Positions 10,583 through 12,657 of a stretch of 40,198 nt of DNA are shown one piece after another. The position numbers were made by a program, and so were the translations under genes. Origin of the DNA: an uncultured Gammaproteobacteria bacterium (GTDB lineage: Bacteria > Patescibacteriota > Microgenomatia > UBA8517); the NCBI GenBank assembly GCA_964540475.1, contig CAZIMC010000002.1, positions 177,551-217,748 on the forward strand, read 5' to 3'. Each line of letters opens with the position of its first letter. The stretch's first letter is position 1. A model generated the notes under the pieces. It saw only the letters and a list, made by a program, of their open reading frames with translations, was not told where the DNA came from and made no database searches.

Positions 10583-12322
10583 TTAGAGTTCAAGGGATTT
10601 TTCGCTGATTTTTGCGACCATCCTCGCTTTGAAGTTTTCAAGTGAAATTTGTCCCAAGTCTTCACTGTTTCTTAATCTCACACTTAAACCATTACTTTCC
10701 ACTTCTTTGTCGCCAACAATTATCATATATGGGACCTTTTCCATCTGAGCATCGCGGATTTTGGCGCCAAGCGTTTCGCTTCGTGCGTCAACTTCTACTC
10801 TTATATTCTCTTTCATTAATTCGCTCACAACGGAGTTTGCATATTCCAAATTCTTCTCAGAGATAGGTAGAATTTTAGCCTGAACCGGAGCAAGCCAGAC
10901 AGGAAACGCCCCAGCAAAGTGCTCGGTTATTATACCAATAAAACGTTCTAAAGACCCGTAAACTACTCTATGTATTACTACCGGGGTTTTCTCAGATCCG
11001 TCTTCTGCAGCATATTTCAGTTTGAATCGCGCAGGAATCTGAAAGTCTAGCTGCAATGTCCCCATCTGCCAGTCGCGTCCAAGTGAATCTTTCATCAAGA
11101 TGTCAATTTTTGGACCGTAAAACGCGCCATCTCCTTCTAAAACAAAATACTCTTTACCTGATTTTTTTAGTATTTCTTTCAGTTCTTTTTCAGCCTTATC
11201 CCAAAGTTTGGGGTCTCCCATGAAATCTGATGGTCTTGTACCTAACCTGAAGCTGTATTTAAGACCAAAAATAGAATAAAATTTTTCAGTTATTTCAAAC
11301 AGTTGTTCAAACTCTGGTGCTATTTGTTCTTCGGTTACAAACAAATGCGCATCATCTTGCCGGAACTCCCGGATTCTTAACAATCCATTTAAAGTACCTG
11401 ATTTTTCGAATCGATGCAGTGTGTCTGTGTCGCCCAAACGAAGGGGCAGATCTCTATATGACCTGGTTTTAGAGTCGAACACTATCATTGCGTTAGGGCA
11501 ATTCATAGGCTTTAGTGCATAAGTTTCCCCCTCCTCCGTTTCGCTAATGAACATATTTTCTTTATAATGGTCCCAGTGCCCTGAAATTTCATATAATTCC
11601 TGTTTGTTTATTAATGGAGATACAATTTCCTGATAACCATATTGTTTATGCTCCTCACGCCAGAAACCAACCAGCTCGTTGTATAAAACAACTCCTTTTG
11701 GAAGCCAATATGCCATACCTGGCGCCGTATGATGAAAAATAAAGAGTTCTAATTCTTGTCCTAACCTTTTATGATTTCTTTTTTCTGCCTCCTCTTGCAT
11801 TTTAAGATAATGGTCTAGCTCTTCCTGCGTTGGGAAAACCGTTCCGTAGATTCTAGTGAGCATTTTATTTTTCTCGCTTCCCCGCCAGTAAGCTCCTGCA
11901 ATAGACAATAATTTAAAGTGTCTTAATTCTTCTGAGGGTTTTTCTACATGTCCACCACGGCATAAGTCCCAGTAATCACCTGATTTATAAAAAGTTAACG
12001 TTTGTCCATCGCCTGAAAATTCATCTATTAATTCATGCTTAAACTCATTATCAGGATATTCCTCTTTTGCTTTCGCGGAGTCAAGCTCGTGTCTTTCAAA
12101 GCTTTTCCAGGAAGGAAGAATTTTTTGCATTTCTTTTTCAATTTTGGAAAGATCATTGTCTGAAATTTTTATATCACCAAAATCAAAGTCAAAATAAAAG
12201 CCGTTTTCGATAGCAGGCCCAATTGTGCGCTTTGTATTAGGCCACAAATTCATAACAGCAGCTGCCAAAAGGTGTGCCGCCGAGTGTCTTAGGTTAACTA
12301 GATAATCTTTATCGTTTTTCAT
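10583..12322 (-). CDS. thrS: threonine--tRNA ligase (lacks N-terminal TGS domain)
   Basis: LRHSAAHLLA, DLCRGGHV, KPMNCP, LRIREFRQDDAH, GAFYGPKID, HRVVYGSLERF. Confidence 0.98.
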   Translation of the reverse strand: MKNDKDYLVNLRHSAAHLLAAAVMNLWPNTKRTIGPAIENGFYFDFDFGDIKISDNDLSKIEKEMQKILPSWKSFERHELDSAKAKEEYPDNEFKHELIDEFSGDGQTLTFYKSGDYWDLCRGGHVEKPSEELRHFKLLSIAGAYWRGSEKNKMLTRIYGTVFPTQEELDHYLKMQEEAEKRNHKRLGQELELFIFHHTAPGMAYWLPKGVVLYNELVGFWREEHKQYGYQEIVSPLINKQELYEISGHWDHYKENMFISETEEGETYALKPMNCPNAMIVFDSKTRSYRDLPLRLGDTDTLHRFEKSGTLNGLLRIREFRQDDAHLFVTEEQIAPEFEQLFEITEKFYSIFGLKYSFRLGTRPSDFMGDPKLWDKAEKELKEILKKSGKEYFVLEGDGAFYGPKIDILMKDSLGRDWQMGTLQLDFQIPARFKLKYAAEDGSEKTPVVIHRVVYGSLERFIGIITEHFAGAFPVWLAPVQAKILPISEKNLEYANSVVSELMKENIRVEVDARSETLGAKIRDAQMEKVPYMIIVGDKEVESNGLSVRLRNSEDLGQISLENFKARMVAKISEKSLEL

Positions 12323-12328
12323 CTTTGT

Positions 12329-12475
12329 TTAAATTTTTTTCACTCTTTTATTTAATGCTGCCATGACAGATTCCACTTTGCACTTAACTGCGGCTACATA
12401 TCTAGCGCTTTTGTTAGGATCTTTGACAAAATCCTTCGCCGCCTCTGTAACTGATAATTCTCGTTCTGTTTGCAT
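12329..12475 (-). CDS. 48-aa orphan protein between the T-box leader and thrS
   Basis: MQTERELSVTEAAKDFVKDPNKSARYVAAVKCKVESVMAALNKRVKKI; GGAG 6 nt before ATG; stop 6 nt before thrS. Confidence 0.6.
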   Translation of the reverse strand: MQTERELSVTEAAKDFVKDPNKSARYVAAVKCKVESVMAALNKRVKKI

Positions 12476-12488
12476 CTTATACTCCAAC

Positions 12489-12621
12489 AAAAAAGCGCCC
12501 GATACTTGTGGGAACCCGCTACGCGGATGGTTCCATCCCACTTTCTTGGACACTTGCTTCTCTATACTTCGCAATAGACGCGTACAACTAGTAGTTGGTG
12601 AATCTACGTCGTGGCTGCAAT
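12489..12621 (-). promoter_or_regulatory. compact T-box riboswitch-like leader of the thrS operon
   Basis: Antiterminator GTGGGA-[TGGAACC bulge]-ATCCGC-GTA-GCGGGT-TCCCAC (12508-12541) has T-box geometry; overlaps imperfect terminator AGCG..CCC/GGG-CGCT-TTTTTT. Confidence 0.8.
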
Positions 12622-12627
12622 TAATTT

Positions 12628-12657
12628 ATTATACGGCTGATTTTAATGCGTTGTCAA
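12628..12657 (-). promoter_or_regulatory. sigma70-type promoter for T-box/thrS
   Basis: TTGACA (12657-12652), 18 nt, TATAAT (12633-12628). Confidence 0.85.

What the first reader, a model, noticed from the sequence alone, without database searches (positions are those of the whole stretch)
12489..12657. Compact T-box riboswitch with a non-canonical short Stem I before thrS
Seen: a consensus promoter, then about 130 nt containing a T-box antiterminator (helix A1 GUGGGA/UCCCAC, 7-nt UGGAACC bulge, helix A2 AUCCGC/GCGGGU), an overlapping imperfect terminator, and AGUA/GAA loop-E-like bases. The 5' domain is far shorter than a canonical Stem I: GACG..CAAC-UACUA-GUUG..CGUC, with Thr codons ACU in the apical loop and ACC in the adjacent internal loop. 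Established: T-boxes are mostly Firmicutes; ultrashort Stem I with an apical specifier is known from actinobacterial ileS T-boxes. Inference: a minimal Thr T-box variant.
Basis: partly seen in the sequence, partly recalled or inferred. Interest (0 to 1): 0.75.

Follow-up and report, generated by a model that had tools for sequence, protein, structure and literature searches.

The report
Minimal threonine T-box riboswitch leader
The stretch is a real but unusually small tRNA-sensing "T-box" RNA switch ahead of the threonyl-tRNA synthetase operon of a candidate-phyla (Patescibacteria) bacterium, and it lacks several parts now thought essential for such switches.

Summary
The finding holds. On the minus strand a perfect sigma-70 promoter (12657-12628) precedes a ~130-nt leader (about 12622-12489). 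It contains a T-box antiterminator (A1 GUGGGA/UCCCAC, bulge UGGAACC, A2 AUCCGC/GCGGGU) and a U6 tract.

Rfam's T-box model does not detect it. A covariance model built only from five homologous thrS leaders of related Woesebacteria-like genomes finds it as the only hit in the window (27.7 bits, E~6e-5). All helices covary.

The conserved element is a hairpin (12612-12584) with a 9-nt apical loop, AUUCACCAA, that carries the Thr codon ACC plus A. Next comes a Stem IIA/B-like element and then a purine string. There is no upper Stem I, no Stem II and no Stem III.

Relatives pair this core with a classical terminator or with a helix that hides the start codon. The window copy is atypical. Its antiterminator (-15.8 kcal/mol) is more stable than the overlapping terminator (-4.9). 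A lower stem, GUGUCC/GGGCGC, turns the whole element into a long hairpin before the U tract. An orphan 48-codon ORF separates it from thrS.

Verdict: new variant of a known kind. Function is untested.

The parts
12628..12657 (-). Sigma-70-type promoter, TTGACA (12657-12652), 18-nt spacer, TATAAT (12633-12628). The transcription start is inferred near 12622.
   Evidence: 12 of 12 matches. Homologous leaders in L161, L169, L173-175 and L178 also start with TTGACA-17-GATAAT.
12584..12612 (-). Ultrashort Stem I. Outer helix ACGAC (12612-12608) / GUUGU (12588-12584). UA bulge (12590-12589). Inner helix GUAG (12607-12604) / CUAC (12594-12591). Apical 9-nt loop AUUCACCAA (12603-12595).
Evidence: It is in the MFE fold. 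The inner helix covaries across relatives: GUAG/CUAC, CAAG/CUUG, CUGG/CCAG, CAG/CUG, CGG/CCG.
12597..12599 (-). Proposed specifier codon ACC (Thr), followed by A12596. It would pair with the GGU anticodon of tRNA-Thr.
   Evidence: UCACCAA is invariant in all 8 distinct leaders. The downstream gene is thrS. The pairing with tRNA is inferred.
12561..12582 (-). Stem IIA/B-like element, a candidate H-type pseudoknot. S1 is CGC (12582-12580) / GCG (12572-12570). S2 is UCUAU (12578-12574) / AUAGA (12565-12561). Loop AAGU is at 12569-12566.
   Evidence: S2 pairs in every member with unrelated sequences, and S1 CG..CG is invariant. Rfam aligns the equivalent of L161 to Stem IIA/F-box. Model R1 aligns it to the IIA/B region of canonical thrS T-boxes L047 and L091. 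The pseudoknot itself is inferred.
12542..12560 (-). Purine-rich linker GAAGCAAGUGUCCAAGAAA, with AAGUG (12555-12551) matching the RRRxG purine-string motif. No Stem III hairpin is present.
   Evidence: Comparison with L161 (AAGAG-UAC-AA), L173, L174 and L178. In the Rfam alignment of L161, Stem III shrinks from 17 to 2 nt. Motif definition from PMC7583486.
12508..12541 (-). T-box antiterminator (discriminator core). A1 is GUGGGA (12541-12536) / UCCCAC (12513-12508). The 7-nt bulge UGGAACC is at 12535-12529. A2 is AUCCGC (12528-12523) / GCGGGU (12519-12514). Loop GUA.
   Evidence: A1 and A2 covary with invariant UGGNACC in six related leaders. Stability -15.8 kcal/mol.
12495..12553 (-). Lower stem GUGUCC (12553-12548) / GGGCGC (12500-12495). 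It encloses the antiterminator and turns the whole element into a long interrupted hairpin that abuts the U tract.
   Evidence: MFE and centroid. It adds -7.3 kcal/mol, giving -23.1 in total. It is seen only in the window copy, so there is no comparative support.
12489..12494 (-). U6 tract, the presumed site of intrinsic termination.
   Evidence: Sequence. L169 and L174 have U7 after a classical T-box terminator.
12329..12485 (-). GGAG Shine-Dalgarno (12485-12482) and an orphan 48-codon ORF (12475-12329). The ORF ends 6 nt before the thrS ATG.
   Evidence: No Pfam or NCBIfam hit. No homologue among 5.8 billion proteins except the contig's own 74-aa gene call, which overlaps the riboswitch. Absent from all relatives.
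10583..12322 (-). thrS, the regulated gene. It is the first gene of thrS-infC-(rpmI)-rplT-pheS-pheT.
   Evidence: TIGR00418 at 679 bits; infC, rplT, pheS and pheT lie downstream.

Best explanation
This is a threonine-specific T-box riboswitch of a strongly reduced type. It sits in the 5' leader of the thrS-infC-rplT-pheST operon of a Woesebacteria/Microgenomates-like Patescibacterium.

Proposed working:
- Transcription starts at the consensus promoter.
- The ACC codon, displayed in the apical loop of a 29-nt Stem I, pairs with the GGU anticodon of tRNA-Thr.
- A Stem IIA/B-like element and a purine string follow.
- The free 3'-NCCA end of uncharged tRNA pairs with UGGA of the 7-nt bulge between helices A1 and A2.
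- When tRNA-Thr is uncharged the operon is read through. When it is charged, transcription stops at the U6 tract.

Shown: homology to T-boxes, covarying helices, the conserved specifier loop and bulge, and the gene context.

Inferred: tRNA binding and the switch itself.

In the window copy the off state is most likely not the classical terminator. Instead a lower stem (GUGUCC/GGGCGC) would sequester the purine string and extend the antiterminator hairpin down to the U tract. tRNA binding would then have to compete for the purine string. This last step is speculative.
For: - Model R1, built from five relatives without the window, finds 12508-12622(-) full length as the only window hit (27.7 bits, E 5.9e-5). 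Eighty decoy loci that hold both motifs give nothing.
- Relatives L161-165, L173, L175, L169, L174 and L178/179 have the same layout directly upstream of thrS. Each has a TTGACA/GATAAT promoter, the loop nYUCACCAA, and UGGNACC between helices.
- Covariation: 94.3% of cells are paired, against 40-56% in slid controls. Nine of 15 pairs show double changes. 0 of 500 shuffles reach the observed value. A manual check of all helices agrees.
- Rfam RF00230 aligns L161 end to end (30.9 bits, E 1.3e-5 locally). It keeps the Stem I base, Stem IIA/F-box, the purine string and the antiterminator.
- R1 also cross-hits canonical Firmicute thrS T-boxes.
- In relatives the off-state helices are the MFE and overlap the A1/A2 3' strands. 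L169 and L174 have a terminator at -14.8/-16.4 against an antiterminator at -5.6. L161, L173 and L175 have the AUG-sequestering helix as their MFE, and L178 shows the same AUG-sequestering pairing by inspection.
- No other promoter for thrS was found between the leader and the gene.
Against: - Rfam's curated T-box model gives no hit in the window, even on 171 nt at E<=10.
- Upper Stem I, Stem II and Stem III are absent. The literature treats them as needed for tRNA binding (PMC7583486).
- In the window the antiterminator (-15.8) is far more stable than the overlapping terminator (-4.9, or -11.3 with a 5' hairpin). The canonical mutually exclusive switch is therefore not evident.
- The lower stem has no counterpart in relatives.
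- The leader is separated from thrS by an orphan ORF.
- Several equally close relatives (L081-083, L166, L168, L170-172, L176, L177) have no leader at all, so it is dispensable.
- No tRNA-Thr gene is available to check the discriminator base.
Confidence: 0.75

Rival explanations
1. Relic or locked T-box. The window copy descends from a working minimal T-box but no longer switches. Its over-stabilised A1/A2 hairpin plus the lower stem acts as a fixed partial terminator (attenuator), or simply as a stable 5' structure. thrS expression would then be set by leaky read-through and by coupling to the small ORF.
For: - The antiterminator at -15.8 beats the overlapping terminator at -4.9, and the extended hairpin is at -23.1.
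- The window scores only 27.7 bits against 94-115 for relatives.
- The orphan ORF insertion and the longer linker suggest rearrangement.
- Many relatives have lost the leader entirely.
Against: - The specifier loop, the UGGAACC bulge, the IIA/B-like element and the perfect promoter are all intact. A1 and A2 are kept by compensatory changes, which argues for continued selection.
- A constitutive terminator in front of an essential operon with no other promoter would be costly.
Confidence: 0.17
2. ThrRS-binding operator, meaning protein autoregulation as in E. coli thrS. The hairpins would mimic the tRNA-Thr anticodon arm and bind ThrRS rather than tRNA.
For: The element is a conserved hairpin loop upstream of thrS. 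The mechanism is established for E. coli (own knowledge).
Against: - The invariant loop carries the codon ACC, not a Thr anticodon (GGU/UGU/CGU).
- The 3' half is a T-box bulge with covarying A1/A2 and classical overlapping terminators in relatives.
- It shows homology to RF00230.
Confidence: 0.03
3. Protein-coding sequence or leader-peptide attenuator. The region would be part of the 74/81-aa ORF that the gene caller reported, or a Thr-codon leader peptide like that of L002-L005.
For: - An open frame runs from 12574/12553 to 12329, and the source gene call P0121 is 74 aa.
- The more distant relatives L002-L005 do have a short Thr-rich leader ORF.
Against: - No homologue of the ORF exists in 5.8 billion proteins.
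- The reading frames across the conserved loop differ between the window, L085 and L161, while the nucleotides and pairings are conserved.
- No conserved start codon is present.
Confidence: 0.03

Closest known systems
Canonical transcriptional T-box leader (Rfam RF00230), e.g. the thrS T-boxes of Clostridia (L017, L038)
   Same: - It is a 5' leader of thrS.
- It has a Thr specifier followed by a purine.
- It has a Stem IIA/F-box-like element and an RRRxG..AA purine string.
- The antiterminator has a 7-nt UGGAACC bulge between A1 and A2.
- A U tract follows.
- The relatives L169 and L174 have the classical overlapping terminator.
- The first A2 pair is A-U, as in L038.
   Different: - It lacks the roughly 75 nt of upper Stem I (specifier internal loop, AG bulge, distal loop/elbow platform).
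- It lacks Stem II with its S-turn, and Stem III.
- The specifier sits in an apical loop.
- The core is about 105 nt, against about 210.
- It scores far below the Rfam threshold: the window gives no hit and relatives give 20-31 bits against a gathering score of 93.
- The window's terminator logic is non-canonical.
Actinobacterial translational ileS T-boxes with ultrashort Stem I (Sherwood et al. 2015, as summarised in PMC7583486)
   Same: - Stem I is truncated and lacks the elbow-binding platform.
- The specifier is mounted in an apical loop.
- Some family members (L161, L173, L175, L178) regulate translation.
   Different: - Those RNAs keep a long Stem II with an S-turn, reported as essential once Stem I is truncated. 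They also keep Stem III. Both are missing here.
- They sequester the Shine-Dalgarno sequence, whereas here the start codon itself is paired.
- Members of this family also use transcription terminators (L169, L174, probably the window). The review says that normally requires a long Stem I.
- The amino acid (Thr, not Ile) and the phylum (Patescibacteria) differ.
glyQS T-boxes (naturally lacking the Stem II domain)
   Same: There is no Stem II S-turn. The architecture is compact.
   Different: glyQS keeps the long Stem I with the elbow platform, and keeps Stem III. Its strong GGC/GCC pairing is thought to compensate for the missing Stem II. Here neither compensation is present.

Membership tests
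T-box leader (RF00230) | Reaches the curated Rfam gathering score (93 bits) | tested here: not met
   No hit in the window at gathering or at E<=10, on 40 kb, 751 nt or 171 nt. Relatives score 20-31 bits. Positive controls L017 and L038 score 134 and 121 bits.
T-box leader (RF00230) | Located in the 5' leader of an aminoacyl-tRNA synthetase or amino-acid gene, downstream of a promoter | tested here: met
   A 12/12 promoter lies at 12657-12628. thrS is downstream, although 166 nt and an orphan ORF intervene.
T-box leader (RF00230) | Antiterminator: helices A1 and A2 separated by a 7-nt bulge UGGNACC | tested here: met
   GUGGGA[UGGAACC]AUCCGC..GCGGGU-UCCCAC. A1 and A2 covary and the bulge is invariant in six related leaders.
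T-box leader (RF00230) | Specifier codon matching the regulated gene, followed by a purine | tested here: met
   ACC followed by A, in the loop AUUCACCAA. UCACCAA is invariant in 8 distinct thrS leaders. It sits in an apical loop rather than an internal loop.
T-box leader (RF00230) | Long Stem I with AG bulge and distal loop (elbow-binding platform) | tested here: not met
   Stem I is 29 nt (12612-12584). In the Rfam alignment of L161, 75 model positions are replaced by 8 nt.
T-box leader (RF00230) | Stem II with S-turn | tested here: not met
   Only 1 nt separates Stem I from the IIA/B-like element in the window. The Stem II columns are empty in the Rfam alignment of L161.
T-box leader (RF00230) | Stem IIA/B pseudoknot with F-box | tested here: inconclusive
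   The candidate is CGC..UCUAU..GCG-AAGU-AUAGA. S2 covaries and S1 is invariant. It is aligned to IIA/F-box by Rfam in L161 and by R1 in canonical T-boxes. It is absent in L178. The pseudoknot is not provable from invariant pairs.
T-box leader (RF00230) | Stem III flanked by the RRRxG..AA purine string | tested here: not met
   There is no hairpin between the IIA/B-like element and A1. Only AAGUG..AA-like purines remain.
T-box leader (RF00230) | A terminator or sequestrator that shares the 3' strands of A1/A2 and is more stable than the antiterminator | tested here: not met
   Window: the overlapping terminator is -4.9 (-11.3 with a 5' hairpin) against an antiterminator at -15.8 kcal/mol. Met in relatives L169, L174, L161, L173 and L175 and, by inspection, L178.
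T-box leader (RF00230) | N of UGGN complementary to the discriminator base of the cognate tRNA | not testable with these tools
   No tRNA-Thr gene was found among the 14 tRNAs of the window or in the 73 related loci scanned for tRNA genes.
T-box leader (RF00230) | Read-through or translation that depends on uncharged tRNA | not testable with these tools
   This needs an experiment. No RNA run holding this organism was found.
Patescibacterial minimal thrS T-box (family defined here by model R1) | Significant full-length match to a model built without the window | tested here: met
   27.7 bits, E 5.9e-5, model positions 1-110, the only hit in the window. Decoys are negative.
Actinobacterial ultrashort-Stem-I translational T-box | Apical specifier loop, plus a Stem II S-turn domain, plus Shine-Dalgarno sequestration | tested here: not met
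   The apical specifier is present. Stem II is absent. The window ends in a U tract rather than an SD-sequestering helix. Translational relatives pair the AUG, not the SD.

The most novel reading that the evidence does not exclude
Patescibacteria carry a previously undescribed class of minimal T-boxes with an 85-110 nt core. These sense tRNA-Thr with only an apical specifier hairpin, an optional IIA/B-like knot, and a discriminator without Stem III. The same core drives both transcription terminators and start-codon-sequestering helices. In the window copy the off switch has moved. A lower stem sequesters the purine string and completes a terminator around a permanently folded antiterminator, so tRNA binding would act by freeing that string rather than by competing for the A1/A2 3' strands.
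Probability: 0.25. Interest if true: 0.85.

Novelty: new variant of a known kind. Interest (0 to 1): 0.68.

Why it matters
Current structural work (reviewed in PMC7583486) makes three claims:
- Transcriptional T-boxes need a long Stem I with the elbow platform.
- Stem III is indispensable for capturing the tRNA 3' end.

This natural family lacks all three. It is still kept by compensatory evolution in front of thrS, and it is coupled to both terminators and start-codon sequestration.

If it works, it would be the smallest natural tRNA sensor of this kind known to me. It would make a compact scaffold for structural work and engineering. No paper in the searchable library links T-boxes to the Candidate Phyla Radiation or Patescibacteria, so it may extend their known range.

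It also exposes an annotation gap. Rfam and TBDB-style models miss it, and a gene caller placed a 74-aa 'protein' over it.

Tried and rejected
- Rfam at gathering and at permissive thresholds on the window gave no T-box hit.
It has no comparative support and a slightly worse energy.
- The mid hairpin read as Stem III was considered, because an RRRCG motif precedes it. It was set aside because both Rfam and R1 align it to Stem IIA/B, and a second RRRxG..AA string lies next to A1.
- MAFFT alignments A1 and A2 misregistered A2 and the mid hairpin. I used the model-based alignment A5 and a manual check instead.
- A leader peptide was rejected because the frames are not conserved.
- An anticodon-mimic operator was rejected because the loop holds a codon.
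- The 48-aa ORF has no family and no homologue.
- A search for tRNA-Thr, to test the discriminator base, found none in the window or in the 73 loci scanned.
- A search for sequencing runs found one DNA-type run with 23% of the words and no RNA data.
- A motif scan of viral contigs returned only chance matches. These were reused as decoys.
- A possible pairing of the specifier loop (CCAAC) with GUUGG at the Shine-Dalgarno region was noted. It is not conserved in relatives and was not pursued.

Full report
**Setting.** The feature lies on the minus strand. NCBIfam identifies 12322-10583 as thrS (TIGR00418, 679 bits). It is followed by infC, rplT, pheS and pheT. Upstream lie a 70-aa DUF5665 gene (12873-12661) and tRNA-Ala.

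The closest named ThrRS relatives are Candidatus Woesebacteria and Microgenomates MAGs at up to 75% identity. The window is therefore from a Patescibacterium, at about 40% GC.

**Check of the observation.**
- A 12/12 promoter, TTGACA-18-TATAAT, is at 12657-12628.
- The transcript contains GUGGGA[UGGAACC]AUCCGC-GUA-GCGGGU-UCCCAC (12541-12508). This is a 7-nt UGGNACC bulge between two 6-bp helices, as in a T-box antiterminator, and it is part of the MFE fold.
- GGGCGC-U6 follows at 12500-12489.
- Rfam's T-box model finds nothing in the window, even at E<=10 on 171 nt. The same model scores 134 and 121 bits on the thrS leaders of the Clostridia controls L017 and L038.

**Relatives.** Scans with ThrRS and context look-ups gave seven further distinct leaders of the same kind, each directly upstream of thrS:
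- L161-165
- L173, L175 and L174
- L169
- L178/L179
- L085, which is partial

L084 is cut by its contig end but finishes with the same terminator tail as L169.

Most of these leaders begin with TTGACA-17-GATAAT (L085 has a weaker -10). All carry an apical loop nYUCACCAA. All except L085 carry UGGNACC 44-66 nt downstream, between helices whose sequences differ.

Equally close relatives have no leader at all: L081-083, L166, L168, L170-172, L176 and L177. The element is therefore sporadic.

**Independent test of homology.** I built covariance model R1 from five relatives only, without the window.
- It finds window 12508-12622(-) across the full model, as the only hit in the window (27.7 bits, E 5.9e-5).
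- The E-value is rough because the calibration was shortened.
- Eighty viral-contig decoys that each contain TCACCAAC and GTGGAACCA at the right spacing give no hit. L178, which was not in the model, scores 53.6 bits.

**Covariation.** On the model-based alignment A5, Stem I, A1 and A2 behave as follows:
- 94.3% of cells are paired, against 40-56% when partners are slid.
- 9 of 15 pairs show changes on both sides.
- 0 of 500 shuffles reach the observed value.

Two caveats apply. There are only six sequences, and the alignment was fitted to the model. A manual check of every helix in every member agrees.

**Corrected anatomy.** The conserved Stem I in the window is ACGAC-GUAG-[AUUCACCAA]-CUAC-UA-GUUGU (12612-12584). 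The inner helix reads GUAG/CUAC here, CAAG/CUUG in L085, CUGG/CCAG in L161, and CAG/CUG or CGG/CCG elsewhere.

The loop ACU becomes UGCC in L085.

The invariant loop holds ACC (12599-12597) followed by A. This is the expected specifier for tRNA-Thr(GGU) and matches the 'apical specifier' form of short Stem I described in PMC7583486.

**What is missing and what remains.** Rfam's sub-threshold alignment of L161 (30.9 bits) is instructive.
- It keeps the Stem I base.
- It deletes 75 positions of upper Stem I and all of Stem II.
- It aligns ACG-UUGAUUU-CGUAA to Stem IIA/F-box.
- It reduces Stem III from 17 to 2 nt.
- It keeps the AAAGAG..AA purine string and the antiterminator.

In the window the equivalent middle element is CGC-G-UCUAU-U-GCG-AAGU-AUAGA (12582-12561). 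S2 covaries in all members and S1 (CG..CG) is invariant. The arrangement matches the 21-nt IIA/B knot of the long-Stem-I T-box L091. L178 lacks the element altogether.

**Expression platforms.**
- L169 and L174 have a classical terminator that reuses the 3' strands of A2 and A1 and ends in U7. It scores -14.8/-16.4 kcal/mol, against -5.6 for the antiterminator.
- In L161, L173, L175 and L178 a 7-8-bp helix pairs the A1 3' strand with the thrS start codon. In L161, L173 and L175 it is the MFE; in L178 it was identified by inspection.
- The window differs. The antiterminator is -15.8 kcal/mol.
- In the window a lower stem, GUGUCC (12553-12548) / GGGCGC (12500-12495), adds -7.3 kcal/mol. This gives a -23.1 kcal/mol interrupted hairpin that ends at the U6 tract.
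- The 5' strand of that stem overlaps the AAGUG purine-string motif. I therefore propose that tRNA binding competes for this strand. This is an inference from one sequence only.
- The alternative is a locked relic.

**Downstream of the leader.** After the U tract come a GGAG Shine-Dalgarno and a 48-codon ORF (12475-12329) that ends 6 nt before the thrS ATG.
- The ORF has no family hit.
- It has no homologue among 5.8 billion proteins, apart from the contig's own 74-aa gene call. That call starts at 12553, inside the riboswitch.
- It is absent from relatives.
- It may be spurious, or it may be a young ORF that couples translation into thrS, whose own ribosome-binding site is weak.

**Rivals rejected.**
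- A ThrRS operator that mimics the anticodon arm does not fit, because the loop holds a codon.
- A leader peptide or coding sequence does not fit, because frames across the conserved loop differ between members while nucleotides and pairs are kept.

**Comparison with known systems.** The RNA is homologous to T-boxes and most likely works like one. It fails several membership features of the curated family: the Rfam score, the long Stem I, Stem II, Stem III and, in the window, the terminator energetics.

It resembles the actinobacterial ultrashort-Stem-I ileS class in its apical specifier. However, it lacks the Stem II domain that the review calls essential there. It also includes transcriptional members, which the review says need a long Stem I (PMC7583486).

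TBDB ran its short-Stem-I model only on Actinobacteria (PMC7778990). Three literature searches found no paper that links T-boxes to the Candidate Phyla Radiation or Patescibacteria. That is absence in this library only, not proof of novelty.

**Not testable here.**
- tRNA dependence could not be tested.
- The match of UGGA to the tRNA-Thr discriminator base could not be checked, because no tRNA-Thr gene lies in the window or in the 73 loci scanned.

**Verdict.** This is a genuine, reduced Thr T-box, a new variant of a known kind. I am confident in the homology and less confident that this particular copy still switches.

Noticed in passing
L003:2850-2935, L004:2842-2920, L005:2866-2950, L002:2866-2950, L090:2342-2420: More distant Shapirobacteria/Woesebacteria thrS genes (54-57% identity) carry a different conserved leader. 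It has a short ORF ending T-(T/I)-S-P-x-R-A-stop, with a GCCC-nnnn-GGGC hairpin at its 3' end. A second GGGC and a T run follow. It looks like a Thr-codon leader-peptide attenuator.
   Followed up: partly
L085:150-291: This leader has the same specifier hairpin and IIA/B-like element as the window but no UGGNACC bulge. It ends in a simple hairpin, GUCACC-AGA-GGUGGC, plus U6 directly before the thrS AUG. It is either a variant or a decayed form.
   Followed up: partly
L178:1075-1200 (also L179): This is the smallest member. It has no IIA/B-like element and only 44 nt from specifier loop to bulge. The A1 3' strand CUUCA pairs with the start codon region AUAUGAAG.
   Followed up: partly
window 12329-12553 (-): The source annotation calls a 74-aa protein (P0121) that starts at a GTG inside the riboswitch. 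It has no homologues and is probably a false or young gene call over a structured RNA.
   Followed up: yes
L091:717-916; L047:2621-2725; L015:2616-2723: L091 is a long-Stem-I thrS T-box. It falls below the Rfam threshold (82.6 against 93 bits) and nearly lacks Stem III. L047 and L015 carry T-box-like antiterminators that model R1 hits but RF00230 does not report at E<=5. Their Stem I was not examined.
   Followed up: partly
window, whole: There are fourteen tRNA genes scattered over 40 kb and none is for Thr. tRNA-Ala(GGC) and DUF5665 lie upstream of thrS, as in L166 and L169 (synteny).
   Followed up: no
L003:2111-2219, L002:1080-1188, L005:1648-1756: R1 gives weak hits (17-26 bits) in three related genomes. 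They lie 0.8-1.9 kb upstream of thrS and have no UGGNACC. They are probably A-rich chance matches but recur across genomes.
   Followed up: no
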